A stretch of 53,636 bases of DNA from positions 1-53,636 of the forward strand of contig JAWLDI010000001.1 in NCBI GenBank assembly GCA_041686715.1. The letters run 5' to 3'. This stretch comes from Pelovirga sp. (GTDB taxonomy: Bacteria > Desulfobacterota > Desulfuromonadia > Desulfuromonadales > Geopsychrobacteraceae). Under the pieces are notes generated by a model. That model worked only from the letters and a program-made list of their open reading frames with translations. It had not been told where the DNA came from and did not search any database. The position numbers and the translations under genes were made by a program. Below, one piece after another: positions 23,786 through 34,469 of this stretch. The first letter of the stretch is position 1, and each line of letters begins with the position of its first letter.

Positions 23786-24079
23786 ATGAAAAACACCCTC
23801 ACTGCAGGAATCAGTTATCTCCACAGCTATCAGGTCCCCACCGACAAAACCGGCCCCCATGTTTTTAAAGAATCCGATCTGTTCGCCGCCATGCCGCCGG
23901 TTTTTGCGACGGCATTCATGGTCGGACTGATGGAATGGGCGTGTATGGAGGCGTTGCGGCCGCACATGGAGGAAGGGGAAATCAGCCTCGGAACCAATAT
24001 CTGTTTGACCATTTCAAGCCCCCTCATCCGGCTTTCAGCCACCTTCTCCCCCAGGAGAAGGGTTCAAACGGAAGAGTGA
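23786..24079 (+). pseudogene. Truncated FlK-like hotdog thioesterase
   Basis: PPVFATAFMVGLMEWAC..AL and SLGT motifs; similarity stops before the expected H..ATP.G segment, where a repeat begins; GGAGG RBS. Confidence 0.7.
24019..24062. repeat. CCCTCATCC...CCTTCTCCC..GGAGAAGG palindromic repeat
   Basis: CCCCCTCATCCGGCTTTCAGCCACCTTCTCCCCCAGGAGAAGGG, double-hairpin REP-like element. Confidence 0.7.
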
Positions 24080-25917: not shown

Positions 25918-26580
25918 TCAGGGACGATACCGGGAGTAATCTATTTCCTGATCGTCTCCCCAGACCTTTTCGATGAACTGATAGCGCCCCGAGTTGAAGG
26001 TGTAGAACTTGTAACGCAACGGACTTTTCTTGTAGTAATCCTGGTGATACTCTTCAGCATCGTAGAAGGCTTTAAACGGTACAATCTCGATCACTACCGG
26101 ATCGTCATAACGACCGGAGGCTTCCAGTTCAGCTACCGATGCTGCAGCTGCTGTTTTTTCTGCCTCGTTGTGGTAAAAAACCGCTGGTCGGTATTGCTTG
26201 CCACGATCGACATACTGTCCTTCAGCATCCGTCGGGTTGGCAGTTCGCCACAGGGCCTGCAACAACCCTTCGTAAGTAATTAGCGCCGGATCATAATGCA
26301 CCTGTACGGCTTCGGTGTGACCGGTATTGCCACCGGCTACCTGCTCATAGGTCGGATCAATCTCGTTGCCGCCGCTGTAACCGGATACCGCCGCTACGAC
26401 ACCGGGAACCTTTTCAAAGGCTTCCTCCACACACCAGAAACAGCCACCGGCAAATGTGGCAACGGCCAGATCAGGATCGGCAGGAGCATATTTTGAAGCC
26501 ATCGCGCTGGAAGCGTTCAGTTGAAATCCCGCCAGAGCAATGACAACAGCCGTGGAGATCAGTAACAGATAGCGTTTCAT
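25918..26580 (-). CDS. msrA: Exported peptide-methionine (S)-S-oxide reductase
   Basis: Signal peptide; FAGGCFWC, SGYSGG, TGHTEAV, FYDAEEYHQDY. Confidence 0.93.
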   Translation of the reverse strand: MKRYLLLISTAVVIALAGFQLNASSAMASKYAPADPDLAVATFAGGCFWCVEEAFEKVPGVVAAVSGYSGGNEIDPTYEQVAGGNTGHTEAVQVHYDPALITYEGLLQALWRTANPTDAEGQYVDRGKQYRPAVFYHNEAEKTAAAASVAELEASGRYDDPVVIEIVPFKAFYDAEEYHQDYYKKSPLRYKFYTFNSGRYQFIEKVWGDDQEIDYSRYRP

Positions 26581-26775
26581 CACATCAACCTCCTGCTCTG
26601 GTGTCTCGTGCAGACACCCGATTACTTGATAGAAACAGATAGACTCATCATACCATTTTTTGTCATTTCATTTTTTTGTCATGACATTTTTGCGTATCAA
26701 CTGCTGTTCAAGATGATTCAACTCCGGGAAAATGCTAACATCTCAAAACAAACAACAATTCAGGAGAGTCCCTTT

Positions 26776-27216
26776 ATGCTCAGCAACCCTTTTGTCCGGC
26801 TAGGCTATTTCCTGACCTTTGCCTTTATCTGCCTGGTGTCGCTCCCCTTCTCCAGCATTAGCGCTGAGCTTCCCCAGACCACTAATGATATCCCACGGAT
26901 CAGCATTAAAGAACTGCTGGAATGGCAGGAACAAGAACCCGTAGTCATTGTTGACGCGCGCATAACCAGGGCCTGGAAACGAGCCGGCAATAAAATTCCC
27001 GGCGCAATTCGACTGGACTCGCCGGAAAAGATTGCTCGCTTCACCCTCACGACAGACCCTCAGCAAGCTGTTCTCGTCTATTGTCTCTGACCACGGGAGC
27101 GATCCAGTGCCGGTCTGGCACTGACCTTATCCAAGCAGGGCTTCAGCCGCGTTCGGGTACTCGAAGGAGGTTACCATAGCTGGATCAGTGCAGACCTGCC
27201 GCTGGATCAAAAATAA
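26776..27216 (+). CDS. Exported rhodanese-domain selenoprotein (CxU; TGA 27088-27090 read as Sec)
   Basis: VDAR, KIPGA, LVYCL-TGA-PRERSSAGLA..L..QGF..V.VLEGGY.SW: the domain continues in frame past TGA; SECIS-like hairpin; AGGAG RBS before 26776. Confidence 0.85.
27091..27123 (+). promoter_or_regulatory. Bacterial SECIS element
   Basis: CAGTGCC-GGTCT-GGCACTG perfect 7-bp stem; G-initiated loop starts 21 nt after UGA. Confidence 0.75.
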
Positions 27217-27323: not shown

Positions 27324-27506
27324 ATGATGACCGAATGGAGCTGTGATAACCCCGAGGAACATTGTGATCTGCATGCCTGTCAATTAACGGCCAATGCGCG
27401 CAACCCGGAAATTGACAAAATTTTTGAAAATCCCCGTTACGTCTGTACCAACTGCGGAGCCAAAGTCCATGACGCAGTGAATGTCTGCCGGCCAAAGGAA
27501 CTTTAA
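27324..27506 (+). CDS. Small Cys/His-rich hypothetical protein
   Basis: AAGGAG RBS; HAC...PRYVCTNCGAK.....VCRP pattern; followed by a terminator. Confidence 0.7.
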   Translation: MMTEWSCDNPEEHCDLHACQLTANARNPEIDKIFENPRYVCTNCGAKVHDAVNVCRPKEL

Positions 27507-27560: not shown

Positions 27561-28343
27561 TCAGGTCCGCCACACCGCGATGCGCTGACTCACCGGATAC
27601 ACTGCCGGGCCGAACTGGTTGTATATGGCTACATCGGCAGCGTCGCGACCGTATCCGATCGTTACATACCCCCCCTTGTGGAACGGCTGGGTAGCATCAA
27701 AGGTATACCAGCGACCACCGACATAAGCTTCAAACCAGGCATGCAGGTCCATCGGTTCCAGCTCATACAGATACCCCACCACAAAGCGCGCCGGGATACT
27801 GATACTGCGACATAAGGCGATCCCCAGGTGTGCCAGATCTCGACAGACACCGGACTGCCGATGGTTGACCTCAACCGCGGAGATGGGCAAATCGCTGCTG
27901 CCGGGCAGGTAGCGAATGAAATTGCGCACCCAGCCCTCAATCGCCGACACCTGATCATAGCCGGGTTGAAGATTGGCCGTGATCTCGGTTGCCATCTGAC
28001 CAAAGCGATCTGACTCGCAGTACCGACTCGGAAGAAGGTATTCCAGCACGCCATTGGGAAGATTCTGAATTTCGATGAAAGGGGCCCCCACCGCCTGATC
28101 ACTGAAGTCTGCGGTCTTTACCTGCGCTAATGTATGGATGGCGAAATATCCGGGCGGCGCAATCAACCGCTGGCAGAGATTCCCATAGCCATCAGTAAAC
28201 TCGAACACGGGAACTTCAGGGGCAAGCCGATACTCTTCTTTAGCTATCCATTGCTGGGCCCCACTACGCGGCCGCAGCATCAGCACAAACGGCGTCGCTA
28301 CCGAAATTTCAAATTCAAGATCACAACTGACATGTAACCACAT
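27561..28343 (-). CDS. Transglutaminase-like protein
   Basis: [11 protein letters not shown]; triad GVCRDLAH / HAWFE / TFDAT. Confidence 0.9.
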
Positions 28344-28420
28344 GATTATTCCTGATGGCTCATCAAGCTCTGCCGGCGGACTGCTGCCACCAACCGCTTA
28401 GAGTAAAAATCAATACGCTG

Positions 28421-29371
28421 TCATTCCTCCATTACCATCCGGAAGAAGACCTCGTAAATTGCCTCGCCAACCTGGTTGATCCGGGTCTGGGTAACGTCGA
28501 GATACTCATGCAGCCCGTAATCAAAAATTTCCTCCAGCGCCGCAAACTGAAACTCTGCCAACAACCGTCCCAATGCCTGCTGCGCCTTGTTGGAATAGGA
28601 ATCAATCTGGCCACCACTGATTTCATTGAGGGACTTCATCCCTGCCGCCAGGGAATAATGAACAGCCCGCGGGAAGTTACGGTCAAGCAGCAAAAAATTG
28701 GTGATATTGCGCGGCGCAATGCGACCATACTGCTTGCGGTACATTTCAAATGCGCTGGCTGAACGCAGCAAGGCCCCCCAGAGAATATTGTCATACGGGC
28801 TGCCGACATAATCGACAGAGGGCAACAGGATAAAATACTTAACATCAAGCAGGCGGGTGGTTTTGTCGGCGCGCTCAAGCATCCGCCCGAGGCGACCAAA
28901 ATGCCAGCCTTCGCCATGATTCATGGTCGCATCGGTAATGCCGATAAAGGCGTGACTGGCATTCATCACCTCGGCAGAAAACTGGTGGGGCAGATCCATC
29001 ACGGTCTCTTCCGAAGCGGCGTTGACCATCAGGTAAAAGGTATTGAGCTGCTCCCACATTTCGGAACTGATATATTCGCGGATTGATCGAGCGTTTTCCC
29101 GCGCGGCCCGCACGCAGGAATAAATAGAATTGGTGTTACGCCGGTCAAATATCAGAAAACGGATAGCGTTGTCACGGGTTGCCTCGCCGTAAAGCTTTTT
29201 GAATAACTCGTGATCACCGGTGGTATTGATCAGAGGCTGCCACTGATCACTGGCATCCTCGGGAAGATCAAGGGTCATATTATAATTGGCGGAAATAAAA
29301 CGGGCGACATTTTCAGCCCGCTCAATATAGCGGTTCAACCAGTAGATGGAATTCGCAACCCGACTCAGCAT
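28421..29371 (-). CDS. Alpha-E domain protein (DUF403)
   Basis: [39 protein letters not shown]. Confidence 0.9.
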
Positions 29372-30873
29372 GGCGCATCCTCCTGATTCTGATTCTGATT
29401 CTCCTCCTGCAACGGAGATTCAGGTGACGGTCCCTCCGTTGAATTAATCACCCAGGTGTCTTTACTCCCTCCCCCTTGCGATGAATTGACCACCAGTGAT
29501 CCTTTCTTCAGTGCCACCCGCGTTAAACCACCGGGCATAACATAGATGTTATCATTGCCACAGAGGATATAGGGGCGCAGATCGACATGCCGTCCCTCGA
29601 AATGGTCGCCCATCAGCACCGGCACCCGCGACAGCGACAGGGTCGGCTGAGCAATATAGATGCGTGGCCTGGCGATAATCCGGCGGCGGAATTCTTCGCG
29701 CTCTTCAGCGCTGGCATGGGGGCCGATCAACATGCCATAGCCGCCGGACTCATTCACCGCCTTGACCACCAGCTTGTCGAGGTTTTCCAGAACGTATTTG
29801 CGGTCGTCTTCGCGCCAGCAGGCATAGGTCGGCACATTGTTAATGATAGGATCTTCCTGCAGGTAATATTTGATAATCTCCGGCACATAGGCATAGACCG
29901 CCTTGTCATCGGCAACCCCGGACCCGGGGGCATTGGCGAGAGCGACCCGTCCTTTACTGTAGGCTTCCATCAAGCCCGGCACGCCAAGCATGGAATCGGC
30001 ACGGAACACCTTGGGATCGATGAAATCATCGTCGATGCGCCGATAAATCACATCAACCCGTTCCAGTCCCTTGGTTGTGCGCATCATCACCTCGCCACGG
30101 TGAACAACCAGGTCCCGCCCCTCAACCAGCTGCACTCCCATCTGTTGCGCCAGGTAACTGTGCTCGAAATAAGCGGAGTTATAAATACCTGGCGTCCAGA
30201 CCACACACACCGGAGCACGCACCCCGGGCGGAGCCATGTCCTGCAGCATATCGAGCAGGCGAATCGGATAATCCGTGACCGGCTGAACACTGCAGGCATC
30301 AAAAACCAACGGGAAGGTGCGTTTCATGATCTGCCGATTTTCCAGCACGTATGAAACCCCCGAGGGACAGCGCAGATTGTCCTCGAGAACATAATACTCA
30401 CCATCGCCACCACGAACCAGATCGGTTCCGGTAACATGACACCAGACACCACAAGGAGGATCAAGGCCGATACAGGGTTTACGAAAACCTTCCGCGGAAA
30501 GCACCAGATCCGCCGGCACAACGCCATCTTTAAGAATCTTCTGGTCGTGATAAACATCGTCGATAAACAGGTTCAGGGCGTGAATCCGCTGTTTCAGACC
30601 AACCTCAAGGTGTTGCCACTCTTGCGCCTGAATAATCCGTGGGACGATATCAAAGGGGAAAATTTTTTCGGTCTGGGCATCGTCACTGTAGACGTTAAAG
30701 GTGATTCCCAGATTCAATAACGCTTTTTCTGCCGCCTGTTGCCGGCGCTGCAACTCAGAATCAGGCAGGGCGTTGATACGCTTGACAAGCAGGTCGGCGC
30801 CGCGCCGCGGTTTCCCTCCGGCATCAAACAACTCATCATAAAAACCTTCGGTATCATATCCGGTAAAATTCAT
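29365..30873 (-). CDS. Circularly permuted ATP-grasp (type 2) protein
   Basis: [67 protein letters not shown]. Confidence 0.92.
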
Positions 30874-30924
30874 TGAATCCTCCTTTATTTAAGGGGTCAA
30901 AAAACACATTCATTGTTACTGATA

Positions 30925-31851
30925 TCAGGACAATGGACCCTGGCTCTGTTGTTGTTGCAGCAACAGCGGTTGATCAGGCTGCCTGGCGACATCAACAGAA
31001 ACCACGACCTGATGCTTGCCTCCTCCCAGAGCGATCCCCTTTAAGGGCGACACATCGGAAAAATCACGTCCCCAGGCGACAGTAATATGCTGCTCGCGCG
31101 GTTGGTGATTATTGGTCGGATCAAAATCAAACCAGCCATGGCCTGGAAGATAAACAGCAAACCAGGCATGGGAAGCATCAGCACCGATCAGCCGCTCCTG
31201 CCCCGGCGCCGGCAGGTTTTCGATATAACCACTGACATAGCGAGCCGCCAGCCCCAATGAGCGCAGACAGCCGATGGCAACATGAGCGAAATCCTGACAC
31301 ACCCCCCGCCTTTTTTCGAGGACCTCCGCCAATGGTGTCGCAATGGTCGTTGATGTCGGGTCATAGGAAAAGTCGTGATAAATCCGCTGCATCAGATCCA
31401 TTGCCGCCGCCAGCAAAGGACGTTCTGGGGTCATGGAAGCCCGGGCATAGTCAACCAGCGGTGGCAATAACGGGATCAGTGGTGAAGCGTAGCGGTACGG
31501 CATCACTGAAACAATGTCAGGGGTGCGCTGGGTACGCAACATCTCAACAACCGCCTCCCAGGGGTGCGATTGTTCCGGTTTTTGCAGGTATATCCGCGGG
31601 AAAACCTCAACATCACTGACAGCCGTCACCGTTAAGGTATCATGAGGCTGCTGGATGGCAAAATGGGTCCTAAGATTACCAAAAAAGTCGCTGCGCTCAT
31701 GGATATCCGTGGCTTCGGGACTGATCTGCAGCACGCTGTTGCGAGAGCGTTGATGCTCAGTCTCGCGCACCAGTAGACAGGTTTCATTGCGGCACATATT
31801 AACCGCTTCGCTGTAGTGGTAACGCGTCACATGTCGAATACGATAGTTCAT
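30925..31851 (-). CDS. Transglutaminase-like protein with Bact_transglu_N domain
   Basis: IRHVTRYHYS, DFFGN, GVCQDFAH / ASHAW / FDPTN, GRDFSDVSPLKG. Confidence 0.92.
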   Translation of the reverse strand: MNYRIRHVTRYHYSEAVNMCRNETCLLVRETEHQRSRNSVLQISPEATDIHERSDFFGNLRTHFAIQQPHDTLTVTAVSDVEVFPRIYLQKPEQSHPWEAVVEMLRTQRTPDIVSVMPYRYASPLIPLLPPLVDYARASMTPERPLLAAAMDLMQRIYHDFSYDPTSTTIATPLAEVLEKRRGVCQDFAHVAIGCLRSLGLAARYVSGYIENLPAPGQERLIGADASHAWFAVYLPGHGWFDFDPTNNHQPREQHITVAWGRDFSDVSPLKGIALGGGKHQVVVSVDVARQPDQPLLLQQQQSQGPLS

Positions 31852-34469
31852 AATACCATTTCCCGCAGCGGCAAACCGAACTGTTGCAACGCCTGTGTCG
31901 GCCTGAAATAGAACTGGGTCAGACAGTTCGAAAGCTGCTGCAGGCGCTTTTTCTGATCTGTCAGCAGCGCCTCCAGCAGGGGGTAGCTGCCACTCTCGGA
32001 GATTTGCCGGGTCAAACCTTTATGATCTGTCGCCTGTAATTGCTCCAGCGCAGAAGAGATAATTTCCTCATCTTGACCCACTGTGGGCACATTGGCTTCG
32101 TGGGGCAGTTCACTGATATGTCTTTTCATCTGGCGCATCTGGCAGGCCAGGGACCTGGGATAATTTTCATCCAGCAACAAGAGTTCGAGGATGGGTGATA
32201 ACTGCATGAATGAACGATAACGACGGCGAAAAACGACCAGGCTGTTGCAGCTTGCCAGCACCGTTTCCATAATACGCGCTTCGGTCGCACTATCGTAACA
32301 GGGCACCAGTGTCTCATTGAGCAGATCAATCAAATTGAGAGCCCGCTCGAGTCGACGCCCGATATTCAGCAGCAACCAGGCTGTTTCACGCGCCATATTT
32401 TCATAAGCCAACCCGCTGAAAGCCGACAGTTGCAACACCAGTTGGTGAACATTTTCATACATCCGGCCGCTGCCGATCAATGCCCTGCCGACTCGCGGGT
32501 TCCATGACTGCATCTGGTCCACCAACCGCCAGGCATCTTCGGGAAGCAGATCACGTATTTCCACTGCCGAGCGGCCCAGACTGCGCAAGGAGGATCGCAA
32601 ACTCCCCGATCGATCGATATCGCGAATCAACGACAGCAGCTCTGCCCGTGGATCATCCAATTTCTGCTGTGCGTCTTTACCGACAAAGCCCGGATAGGTC
32701 AGGGTAACATGGGTCAACGCCTGCAGCAGATGATTCAGACTGATGCGATCATCCGGATCGCCAAACTCTTTAACTTCACGCAGCTTCACCAGTATAGAAC
32801 GCAGCAGCCGCGCCGTCTGTTCGGTACGCTCAGCATAGCGCCCGGCCCAGAACAGGTTTTCCGCGGCACGGCTCGGTAATGAAACAAAATAGGGTGAAAG
32901 AGGCACATCCGATGTGGATCGCAACCACAGGTTTACCTGTTGATGAGGTTCCTGAGTCAACACCCAGGTATCCTTGATGCTACCTGCACGTTGTCCGGAA
33001 ACAAGCAGGTTGTCACCAGCCGCGGCCACCCGGCTCAGCCCTCCCGGCATCAACTGGTAGCTTTCATTGTGCGCAGTAACATACAGACTGACCAAGCTCT
33101 GGCGGGTGGCCAGCTGCTTCTGCTCATAAGCTGGAAAGGCAACATAATCAACCTGCTCCTGACCAACAAACAGGCGCGGATTGGCACTGATCAGGGCAGT
33201 CCAGCGCTGTCGCTGCGCATCCGTCATCCGTCCCGGAGTTGACTGGGGCATATCAGGTAAGGGCTGAATCGGTTTGATAATCAGACGATCCAGATTTTCC
33301 AGCACATACTTGCACTCCCGCGGCTGACCGCACCACCAGGTCGCAATTGACGGGACCTTCAGGTCAGTGCCCAGAAAATAGCGGCATATTCCAGGCAGAA
33401 ACGCCATCAGTGCCGGATTTGCCAGGATACTGCTACCGATCGGATTGACCAGAGCCAGGTTGCCCCGACGCACTGCCTGCAACAGACCGGGGACACCGCC
33501 GCCGCTATGACTGCGCAGCTCCAGAGGGTCGCAGGCATGATCCGCCAGCCGGGAAAAAATCACATCGACCTGATGCAACCCATCCACCGTTTTCAACCAG
33601 ACACAGCTGTCGCGAACGACAAGATCGCCCCCCTGTACCAACGGGTAACCAAGATAAGAGGCAAGATAGGCATGCTCAAAGTAATCAGGATGCGTCGGCC
33701 CCGCGGTCAGCACCACAATCCGTGGATATTCCTGATGTTGTCGGGCCAATTGGCCGAAGCGCTGGCGCACAGCACGGAAGAACTGTGCCAGTCGGTGTAC
33801 CCTGAATCCCTCGAATAACTGCGGAAAGCTGCGTGTCATGATCACCCTGGTTTCCAGGGCATAACCGGCACCAAACGGCGGGCTGACATGATCATCGACG
33901 ACCCAGAAATTACCGTCAGTCCCCTTGGCTATTGTTGTAGAGAAGAGGTTAAGCTGCTGTGGTTGAGGAAAATTACCATCGGCACAAGGGTAGAAAAAAC
34001 CACTGTGTGGAAAGACCAGCTCCGGCGGCAACAACCGTTTTTCAATCAGTTTACGCGGACCATAGATATCTTGAAGAATCAGGTTAAACAACTCGGCACG
34101 CTGAATCATGGCCTGGTCCAGCTGGCCCCACTCAGCGACACTGAAAATCAGCGGCAGCGGGTCAAACTGCCAGGCGCGATTACTGTTGCTCTGATCAAAG
34201 ACATTGTGGATGGCACCGTTTTCCCGCAACAGCCGTTGCGCCTCGCGAAAACGTGTGTGGACACGCGGCCCCAGTTTCTCAAGATTCTGCTGCAATCGTT
34301 GCCAGTGCTCGGGAAAATCCCCGGCTCCCGCGGCTTCGACAATCGCCCGGTAGATATCGGTGGCGGCGGCAGTTGAAATCGATGTTTCAGGTTCACTTAT
34401 CAAAGTTAAACTCTCATCACATATCTGTTGTTTAGCAGGCTCATCAGCAACTATGGCGGCGCAGGTCAA
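31848..34469 (-). CDS. Circularly permuted ATP-grasp fused to an alpha-E domain
   Basis: WQFDPLP, YFEHAYLA..LG, PGGLSRV, KDTW, then LPSRAAENLFWAGRYAER and GRRLERA; true start may be TTG 34403. Confidence 0.88.
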   Translation of the reverse strand: MTCAAIVADEPAKQQICDESLTLISEPETSISTAAATDIYRAIVEAAGAGDFPEHWQRLQQNLEKLGPRVHTRFREAQRLLRENGAIHNVFDQSNSNRAWQFDPLPLIFSVAEWGQLDQAMIQRAELFNLILQDIYGPRKLIEKRLLPPELVFPHSGFFYPCADGNFPQPQQLNLFSTTIAKGTDGNFWVVDDHVSPPFGAGYALETRVIMTRSFPQLFEGFRVHRLAQFFRAVRQRFGQLARQHQEYPRIVVLTAGPTHPDYFEHAYLASYLGYPLVQGGDLVVRDSCVWLKTVDGLHQVDVIFSRLADHACDPLELRSHSGGGVPGLLQAVRRGNLALVNPIGSSILANPALMAFLPGICRYFLGTDLKVPSIATWWCGQPRECKYVLENLDRLIIKPIQPLPDMPQSTPGRMTDAQRQRWTALISANPRLFVGQEQVDYVAFPAYEQKQLATRQSLVSLYVTAHNESYQLMPGGLSRVAAAGDNLLVSGQRAGSIKDTWVLTQEPHQQVNLWLRSTSDVPLSPYFVSLPSRAAENLFWAGRYAERTEQTARLLRSILVKLREVKEFGDPDDRISLNHLLQALTHVTLTYPGFVGKDAQQKLDDPRAELLSLIRDIDRSGSLRSSLRSLGRSAVEIRDLLPEDAWRLVDQMQSWNPRVGRALIGSGRMYENVHQLVLQLSAFSGLAYENMARETAWLLLNIGRRLERALNLIDLLNETLVPCYDSATEARIMETVLASCNSLVVFRRRYRSFMQLSPILELLLLDENYPRSLACQMRQMKRHISELPHEANVPTVGQDEEIISSALEQLQATDHKGLTRQISESGSYPLLEALLTDQKKRLQQLSNCLTQFYFRPTQALQQFGLPLREMVL

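What the first reader, a model, noticed from the sequence alone, without database searches (positions are those of the whole stretch)
26776..27216. Hidden selenoprotein: exported rhodanese with a CxU active-site loop and SECIS hairpin
Seen: the ORF track stops at YCL-TGA, but the frame continues for 41 codons giving the rest of the rhodanese fold (PRERSSAGLALTLSKQGFSRVRVLEGGYHSWISADLP). A perfect hairpin with a G-initiated loop lies 21 nt downstream. Established: bacterial Sec insertion uses UGA plus an immediately downstream SECIS, and Sec-containing rhodanese-like proteins have been predicted in deltaproteobacteria. Inference: a 146-aa secreted selenoenzyme that standard annotation would truncate or call a pseudogene.
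Basis: partly seen in the sequence, partly recalled or inferred. Interest (0 to 1): 0.85.

Follow-up and report, generated by a model that had tools for sequence, protein, structure and literature searches.

The report
Exported selenocysteine rhodanese, arginine-rich paralogue
The apparent stop codon inside this small sulfur-transferase-like gene is almost certainly read as selenocysteine, giving a likely exported 146-residue selenoprotein of a class already predicted but never assayed, which public protein sets list cut short at 104 residues.

Summary
Confirmed, and of a known kind. Reading TGA 27088-27090 as Sec gives a complete 146-aa rhodanese with a Cys-Leu-Sec loop. The in-frame TGA recurs in 42 of 42 family matches and 77 of 79 order matches. 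The frame after it is under purifying selection. The 7-bp hairpin freezes synonymous sites and covaries at one pair. A syntenic Cys orthologue (TGT) has a damaged hairpin. selA, selB and Sec-type selD are in the genome; selC was not found and probably lies in an assembly gap. This is the catalogued 'rhodanese form 3, CxU' class (predicted only), though it scores under the NF041203 cut-off (92 vs 115 bits). This scan's notes hold the same search words in 33 findings from at least 32 other genomes. What is particular here: a long-branch second paralogue, found in 5 of 9 genomes of one genus, with fixed arginines that create a Cx5R-like string. Most likely it is a periplasmic sulfane-sulfur carrier/reductase (Cys persulfide resolved by Sec; untested). 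An arsenate/oxyanion reductase role is not excluded (about 10%).

The parts
26762..26766 (+). Shine-Dalgarno-like AGGAG, 9 nt before the ATG
   Evidence: sequence; close homologues begin at the same Met
26776..27216 (+). Rhodanese selenoprotein gene, 146 codons plus TAA stop, when TGA is read as Sec
26776..26865 (+). Predicted Sec-pathway signal peptide, residues 1-30 (Arg8, hydrophobic core, small-x-Ala end at residue 30; no lipobox, no twin Arg)
   Evidence: heuristic script: similar hydrophobic, poorly conserved N-termini in all 32 aligned rows; no dedicated predictor was available
26905..27189 (+). Rhodanese domain (PF00581, residues 44-138), spanning the TGA
   Evidence: E 4.3e-13, profile positions 2-101 of 102; models match GlpE at Z 15.4 and 15.1
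27082..27084 (+). Cys103, at the end of the last core strand; likely rhodanese catalytic Cys
   Evidence: invariant in 32 of 32 rows; strand ends at 102 in both models
27088..27090 (+). In-frame TGA = Sec105
   Evidence: TGA at this codon in 31 of 31 loci extracted; TGT in the orthologue L069
27100..27102 (+). Arg109, giving a C-x5-R string; fixed in this clade
   Evidence: 6 of 6 clade rows against 0 of 26 others
27105..27123 (+). Bacterial SECIS hairpin inside the coding sequence: 7-bp stem, GGUCU loop 21 nt after the UGA
   Evidence: meets the consensus constraints quoted in PMC13188914
27091..27213 (+). 41 codons after the UGA (active-site helix, last strand, GGY-x-x-W motif)
   Evidence: 41 or 42 codons to the next stop in 31 of 31 loci; pN 0.17 against pS 0.53 in the clade after the hairpin

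Best explanation
The gene carries an in-frame UGA followed by a conserved SECIS-type hairpin and is almost certainly translated as a 146-residue selenoprotein, predicted to be exported to the periplasm as a single rhodanese domain that likely handles sulfane sulfur. Step 1 (strongly inferred, about 0.97): SelB binds the GGUCU hairpin and inserts Sec at codon 105. Step 2 (predicted, about 0.9): the signal peptide is cut after about Ala30, leaving a soluble periplasmic domain of about 116 residues. Step 3 (inferred by analogy, untested, about 0.6): Cys103 takes a sulfane sulfur from polysulfide or thiosulfate, helped by the clade's extra arginines, forming a persulfide. The Sec105 selenolate two residues away then attacks it, releasing sulfide or passing the sulfur on and leaving a Cys-Sec bridge that a periplasmic reductant re-opens. 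The likely client is the genome's PsrA/PhsA-like molybdoenzyme system for sulfur respiration (least certain).
For: Recoding. TGA inside 42 of 42 matches in 37 of 72 family genomes and 77 of 79 matches in 68 of 155 order genomes. The position was checked in 31 of 31 extracted loci and 4 more. 105 of 121 database homologues end exactly at Tyr-Cys-x. Synonymous divergence in the hairpin codons is pS 0.00 in the clade (0.15 in all 31), against 0.53-0.72 in the flanks; Ala+7 is GCC in 31 of 31. 97.7% of stem cells are paired, and a U-A/C-G swap occurs in 6 of 31 distinct rows, reached by 0 of 500 shuffles. The Cys orthologue L069 (64% identical, same downstream neighbour) has loop GUCCU and a C-A mismatch. 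selA, selB and selD with its own in-frame TGA pass their cut-offs on contig C76. Three other apparent selenoprotein genes of the genome (C147, C72, C190) have the same 21-nt spacing and a [GA]GUCU loop. Fold: both models are rhodaneses closest to GlpE (Z 15.4, rmsd 2.1, 106 aligned; Z 15.1, rmsd 2.5); the Wolinella polysulfide-sulfur transferase 1qxn matches at Z 11.7. Roles: Cys103 is invariant, while the Sec column also takes Ser or Gly, which fits a catalytic Cys and an auxiliary Sec. Context: a PhsA/PsrA-like gene is present (394 bits, under the 694 cut-off); its C-terminal part on C25 is followed by an Fe-S subunit, a Sec multi-rhodanese and another rhodanese.
Against: No activity has been shown for any member: the class is listed under 'Predicted with high confidence', and a search for a purified Sec rhodanese with sulfurtransferase activity found 0 papers. 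The loop is two residues longer than the Cx4R/T sulfurtransferase loop, and sequence aligners put the canonical catalytic Cys on Sec105 rather than Cys103, so the roles could be reversed. The two models disagree on the loop: helix from Pro106 or from Arg109; both had Cys in place of Sec. The gene is not next to any sulfur-respiration gene; its steadiest neighbour is a 60-aa Cys-rich ORF of unknown function without a signal peptide. A PhsA/PsrA-like gene is also in 2 of 4 congeners that lack this clade. Covariation rests on one pair only. selC was not found in this assembly. Both copies in G147 have Ser (TCA) with an intact hairpin although selA and selB are present, so an intact hairpin does not by itself prove current recoding.
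Confidence: 0.6

Rival explanations
1. The same exported selenoprotein works as a general periplasmic thiol/peroxide oxidoreductase or as a selenium (selenite/perselenide) handling protein, using a Cys-Sec redox pair on a rhodanese scaffold rather than transferring sulfane sulfur.
For: Divergent neighbours here are an exported MsrA and an exported DsrE-like protein. The 2026 review expects most uncharacterised selenoproteins to be redox proteins.
Against: The MsrA link was seen in only 1 of the 4 other clade genomes, and DsrE in 2, within the 1.5-3 kb fetched. The second model has a six-residue cradle-like loop. The fold is closest to the sulfurtransferase GlpE.
Confidence: 0.25
2. After duplication this arginine-rich clade became an oxyanion enzyme: a Cdc25/Acr2-like arsenate (or thioarsenate) reductase or phosphatase, with the C103-x5-R109 string as anion cradle and Sec105 as a built-in resolving residue.
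For: Cx5R loops mark rhodanese-fold phosphatases and arsenate reductases (PMC10135228, passages). Arg109 and Arg65 are fixed in 6 of 6 clade rows and absent from the other 26; Arg107 is in 5 of 6 against 2 of 26. Arg65 is in 19 of 20 clade database entries. The clade sits on a long, fully supported branch (about 1.07 changes per column, 100/99) while a conventional CTU copy is kept on C147. In the second model the helix starts at Arg109.
Against: By helix register the canonical Arg position falls on Ser110, not Arg109. Pro106 lacks the backbone NH that an anion cradle uses (established chemistry). Cdc25/ACR2-type structures score lower than GlpE (2j6p Z 12.0, 3f4a 11.8, 1c25 10.7, 1cwr 9.9 against 15.1), though whole-domain Z says little about a loop. 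No arsenic gene was seen among the ORFs scanned near the gene. Arginines would serve thiosulfate or polysulfide binding equally well.
Confidence: 0.1
3. The TGA is a true stop (nonsense mutation, pseudogene, or a 104-residue product), or it is read as Trp.
For: selC was not found in the assembly. One distant database homologue (P0098) has Trp at the column. No RNA contig identical to this gene was found in 4 RNA runs laid.
Against: The same TGA is kept across the order, the downstream frame is under purifying selection, the hairpin is synonymous-frozen, and the Cys orthologue has a damaged hairpin. TGA serves as the ordinary stop of several orthologues, so this is not a TGA=Trp code.
Confidence: 0.02

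Closest known systems
Rhodanese-like selenoprotein 'form 3' (CxU; NCBIfam NF041203 rhodanese_LYCAU; 'COG0607 form 2' in the 2022 review)
   Same: Single rhodanese domain, Tyr-Cys-x-Sec loop, best NCBIfam hit over profile positions 13-126 of 126; listed in PMC13188914 Table 1 and PMC9312934 (passages). Two LYCAU proteins from the same order that pass the cut-off (149-150 bits) also have export-type N-termini and the same hairpin position.
   Different: Scores 92.3 bits against a cut-off of 115 (U scored as C). All 16 other CT-x/CL-x/CxC relatives tested also fall short (86.7-107.6 bits). Loop CLUPRER with fixed Arg65 and Arg109; a second paralogue beside the usual CTU copy.
Single-domain sulfurtransferases GlpE (1gmx/1gn0) and the Wolinella polysulfide-sulfur transferase Sud (1qxn)
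   Same: Same fold (Z 15.1-15.4 for GlpE, 11.7 for 1qxn), with Cys at the end of the same strand. Sud binds polysulfide with high affinity (PMC6378623, passage); its periplasmic location is recalled.
   Different: They have one Cys in a Cx4R/T loop; here the loop is two residues longer and holds Sec.
Rhodanese-fold Cx5R enzymes (Cdc25, Leishmania As-Sb reductase 2j6p, yeast Ygr203w)
   Same: Fold (Z 9.9-12.0) and a literal C-x5-R string.
   Different: The Arg is one residue off by helix register; the loop holds Sec and Pro; the protein is predicted to be exported.
MccSep (Geobacter sulfurreducens periplasmic multiheme selenoprotein, PMC13510729)
   Same: Shows experimentally that an exported UGA-encoded Sec, working with a Cys, cleaves polysulfide in a sulfur-respiring bacterium; the paper leaves room for further periplasmic sulfur-transfer components (passages).
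   Different: Unrelated fold with five hemes. A short-motif scan found no MccSep-like Sec site in this assembly (a weak test).

Membership tests
Bacterial UGA-recoded selenoprotein gene | In-frame UGA at a conserved column, with conserved coding sequence on both sides | tested here: met
Bacterial UGA-recoded selenoprotein gene | Cys-containing homologues at the same column | tested here: met
   L069 has TGT; 12 of 16 read-through database proteins have Cys
Bacterial UGA-recoded selenoprotein gene | bSECIS consensus: loop 3-9 nt, stem 4-16 bp, G in the first two loop positions, 16-37 nt spacing, MFE -7.5 kcal/mol or lower | tested here: met
   loop 5, stem 7, loop starts GG, spacing 21, -12.5 kcal/mol (constraints); conservation
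Bacterial UGA-recoded selenoprotein gene | selA, selB and selD in the genome | tested here: met
   all over cut-off on C76
Bacterial UGA-recoded selenoprotein gene | tRNA-Sec (selC) in the genome | tested here: inconclusive
   not found; present in 7 of 8 congeners; its syntenic place is beyond the end of C124; ARAGORN also lists no Lys, His, Trp or Ile tRNA in this assembly
Bacterial UGA-recoded selenoprotein gene | Selenium shown in the protein | not testable with these tools
   needs 75Se labelling or mass spectrometry
Rhodanese selenoprotein form 3 (catalogue class defined by domain and CxU motif) | Rhodanese domain with a CxU motif and one Sec | tested here: met
   PF00581 E 4.3e-13; C103-L-U105; class definition
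NCBIfam NF041203 rhodanese_LYCAU (equivalog) | Score of at least 115 bits | tested here: not met
   92.3 bits with U read as C; LYCAU proteins treated the same way score 149-150
GlpE/Sud-type sulfurtransferase | Cx4R/T active-site loop | tested here: not met
   two-residue insertion (motif); NF001195 GlpE 37.5 bits against a cut-off of 102
GlpE/Sud-type sulfurtransferase | Export signal (Sud) | tested here: inconclusive
   heuristics favour a cleavable signal peptide; no dedicated predictor was available
GlpE/Sud-type sulfurtransferase | Persulfide formation and sulfur transfer | not testable with these tools
   needs an enzyme assay
Cdc25/Acr2-type Cx5R phosphatase or arsenate reductase | Cx5R loop with the Arg at the start of the active-site helix | tested here: inconclusive
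   string present; register off by one; the two models disagree

The most novel reading that the evidence does not exclude
After duplication, this genus-restricted copy gained a ring of arginines and a Cx5R-type loop and became a periplasmic, selenium-dependent oxyanion reductase (arsenate, thioarsenate or thiosulfate) whose Sec105 resolves the Cys103 intermediate without glutaredoxin: a rhodanese-fold selenoenzyme with a new activity.
Probability: 0.1. Interest if true: 0.75.

Novelty: new member of a known kind. Interest (0 to 1): 0.3.

Why it matters
At minimum it corrects an annotation: 105 of 121 database homologues are cut at the Sec codon, before the active-site helix. It adds a sub-cut-off branch to a selenoprotein class that has been predicted for years but, in the library searched, not assayed. 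The locus offers a ready comparison set for that open question: a Sec copy, a natural Cys orthologue with a damaged SECIS, a Ser variant, and a CTU paralogue in the same genome.

Tried and rejected
selC: ARAGORN, RF01852 (only 150 of 277 candidates scored), an anticodon-arm pattern and blastn with 7 congener loci found none; read as an assembly gap, not absence. Hairpin stability alone was rejected as proof. Promoter/terminator scan: counts equal to shuffles, no promoter-like site on the + strand. Expression: 4 RNA runs laid; none holds a contig identical to the rhodanese gene. One holds a 213-nt piece of a relative (27 other letters) spanning the TGA and hairpin, with no difference listed there. 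All 4 hold identical pieces of the downstream 60-aa ORF; contigs cannot show expression, strand or level. RNA runs with a small share were not used to assign a habitat. The MccSep motif scan was negative but weak. Coupling to PhsA/PsrA across 9 congeners was unclear: 5 of 5 with the clade, 2 of 4 without. An ArrB search gave only sub-cut-off hits, so respiratory arsenate reductase is neither shown nor excluded. The deep profile search of protein representatives never ran because the queue was full, so the range outside the order is known only from the word-based search. No language-model look-alike search was obtained for this protein. No complex prediction was sent, as no binding claim is made. 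L060 and L068 encode the same protein as L031 and were left out of the counts of 31. Only the best 30 of the 42 family matches were fetched as loci, plus the C147 paralogue. The root of the clade is not resolved (midpoint root, long branch), so the order of duplication is not claimed. Literature: 8 searches; passages only were read of PMC13188914, PMC13510729, PMC1976440, PMC9312934, PMC5877670, PMC10135228 and PMC6378623, and no supplements. Subscription papers, including the original bSECISearch paper, were not seen.

Full report
Observation. Window 26776-27216 (+) starts at an ATG 9 nt after an AGGAG. With TGA read as U it gives 146 residues with one U at 105, in the loop VYCLUPRERSS, and ends at TAA. 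Under table 11 the ORF stops at 27090. A perfect 7-bp stem (27105-27123) closes the loop GGUCU, which begins 21 nt after the UGA. This meets all four bSECIS constraints quoted in PMC13188914 (passages). On its own the hairpin is weak evidence: z -3.0 only for the hand-picked 29 nt, -0.55 and -0.16 for longer pieces. About 0.3-0.5% of long six-frame ORFs in this genome show such a hairpin plus 41 open codons, whichever stop codon ends them (7 of 2362 TGA, 7 of 1400 TAA, 2 of 762 TAG). Contigs of four DNA runs from four studies cover the TGA without a variant.

Fold. The read-through protein matches PF00581 over residues 44-138. Its best NCBIfam hit is NF041203 rhodanese_LYCAU, 'rhodanese-related (seleno)protein', at 92.3 bits, under the 115 cut-off. 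Two AlphaFold2 models (pLDDT 91.5 and 93.9, Cys in place of Sec) are closest to E. coli GlpE (Z 15.4, rmsd 2.1, 106 aligned; Z 15.1, rmsd 2.5). Stopping at the TGA would remove the active-site helix and the last strand.

Comparative proof of recoding. In the family, 42 of 42 matches (37 of 72 genomes) contain an in-frame TGA. In the order, 77 of 79 matches do (68 of 155 genomes). In the 31 loci extracted (the best 30 plus the C147 paralogue) the TGA is at the same codon and the frame runs 41 or 42 codons further. After the hairpin, pN is 0.17 and pS 0.53 within the window's clade, as before the TGA (0.14 and 0.60). Inside the hairpin pS falls to 0.00 in the clade and 0.15 in all 31, against 0.70-0.72 in the flanks (uncorrected, pooled over related pairs). 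The stem is paired in 97.7% of cells, against 15-44% for slid controls. One pair swaps U-A to C-G in 6 of 31 distinct rows through two synonymous changes (0 of 500 shuffles); this is one pair, and the rows are related. The best control is natural: L069 (= P0003, 64% identical, same downstream neighbour) has TGT (Cys), and its hairpin has lost the conserved second loop G and carries a C-A mismatch. Of 121 database homologues, 105 end at Tyr-Cys-x (DNA not seen for most); of the 16 that run through, 12 have Cys, 2 Ser, 1 Gly and 1 Trp. A counter-example: both copies in G147 have TCA (Ser) with an intact hairpin although selA and selB are present.

Machinery. selA, selB and a selD with its own in-frame TGA lie together on C76, all over cut-off. 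tRNA-Sec was not found. It is present in 7 of 8 congeners, and in 5 of those 7 loci it lies about 1 kb beyond the gene that the end of contig C124 interrupts here, so it most likely falls in an assembly gap. The genome has four more TGA-bearing rhodanese-like genes (C147, C9, C72, C25). C147, C72 and a SelW-like frame on C190 (label recalled) share the 21-nt spacing and a [GA]GUCU loop.

What is particular to this copy. The window gene belongs to a clade with loop CLUPRER, found in 5 of 9 genomes of the genus, each of which also has a second match; in this genome that is the conventional CTUPNE copy on C147. The clade is separated by a long, fully supported branch (about 1.07 changes per column, 100/99). 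It has fixed changes including Arg65, Leu104 and Arg109 (6 of 6 against 0 of 26) and mostly Arg107. It occupies the locus beside a conserved 60-aa Cys-rich ORF, a neighbour seen in 19 of the 31 loci, window included, within about 1.5 kb, and also beside CTU-type genes of other genera. A close database homologue (73%) is labelled Pelovirga sp. by its source; that the type species reduces sulfur and arsenate is recalled and was not confirmed. DNA runs that hold most of the stretch are sediment metagenomes.

Export. Residues 1-30 have a positive n-region, a hydrophobic core and a small-x-Ala end, with no lipobox or twin arginine. All 32 aligned rows have a similar, poorly conserved hydrophobic N-terminus. 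This is a heuristic prediction of a cleavable signal peptide; periplasmic location is inferred.

Mechanism. Active rhodaneses use a Cys at the end of the core strand in a Cx4R/T or Cx5R loop, for sulfur transfer, phosphate transfer or arsenate reduction (PMC10135228, passages). Here Cys103 ends that strand in both models and is invariant, while column 105 tolerates Sec, Cys, Ser or Gly. I therefore take Cys103 as the persulfide-forming residue and Sec105 as the resolving nucleophile that releases or hands on sulfur, through a Cys-Sec bridge. An exported Sec/Cys pair cleaving polysulfide has a precedent in MccSep (PMC13510729, passages), and the genome has a PhsA/PsrA-like enzyme with Sec and Cys rhodaneses beside it. 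Against this: the loop has a two-residue insertion, aligners place the canonical Cys on Sec105, the models disagree on where the helix starts (106 or 109), and the gene has no sulfur-respiration neighbours. The chemistry is therefore about 0.6, while recoding is about 0.97. A general redox role (0.25) and a Cx5R-type oxyanion role (0.1) remain open.

Comparison with what is known. CxU rhodanese selenoproteins are catalogued as 'form 3' (NF041203) under 'Predicted with high confidence', and were already counted in deltaproteobacterial symbionts in 2007 (PMC1976440, passages). This gene meets the class definition (domain plus CxU) but not the NF041203 score cut-off, like all 16 other CT-x/CL-x/CxC relatives tested (86.7-107.6 bits), whereas two LYCAU proteins from the same order pass. 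Searches showed no biochemical study of the class in the library; papers outside it were not seen. This scan's notes hold the same search words in 33 findings from at least 32 other genomes, and several name this family (unchecked AI notes). No look-alike of this sequence was on record.

Verdict. A real, well-supported selenoprotein gene that gene callers truncate; a new member of a known but unassayed class, with a modest twist (an arginine-rich, genus-restricted paralogue). Interest 0.3.

Noticed in passing
window 27324-27506 (+): 60-aa Cys/His-rich ORF, 73-95% identical in relatives and a frequent neighbour of this rhodanese family. Only weak zinc-ribbon Pfam hits, no NCBIfam family, and Atlas clusters named 'hypothetical protein'. 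Identical pieces lie in 4 of 4 RNA runs laid. Function unknown; possibly a small metal-binding protein.
   Followed up: partly
window 25918-26580 (-): Exported MsrA of 220 aa. The orthologue in L060 is a 399-aa protein with a long C-terminal extension (MsrB-like by recall), and similarity here runs on past the stop codon to 25867, so the window copy looks truncated after the A domain.
   Followed up: partly
window 23786-24079 (+): FlK-type thioesterase remnant: matches only the first 75 of 138 residues of homologues, which in other genera lie directly downstream of the CTU rhodanese.
   Followed up: partly
G000 C25:1-3115 (L028, L025): C-terminal part of a PhsA/PsrA-like molybdoenzyme, an Fe-S subunit, a three-domain rhodanese lipoprotein-like gene with an in-frame TGA (CGGLAU) and a further exported rhodanese: a candidate polysulfide-respiration operon.
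   Followed up: partly
G000 C9:22525-22944, C72:101-535, C190: Further unannotated candidate selenoproteins: rhodaneses with C-x4-U loops (CRGYSU, CMGVRU) and a small CxxU frame, each with a hairpin loop about 21 nt after the TGA. C72 and C124 seem to be two pieces of one gene split by the assembly.
   Followed up: partly
L072 and L073 (G147): Two near-identical rhodanese copies with TCA (Ser) at the Sec codon and an intact hairpin, in a genome with selA and selB: an apparent recent loss of Sec.
   Followed up: partly
window 27561-34469 (-): Cluster with transglutaminase-like and alpha-E proteins and long unscanned ORFs; its proximal part is conserved downstream of the gene in the four other clade genomes. 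It is on the opposite strand and no link is implied.
   Followed up: no
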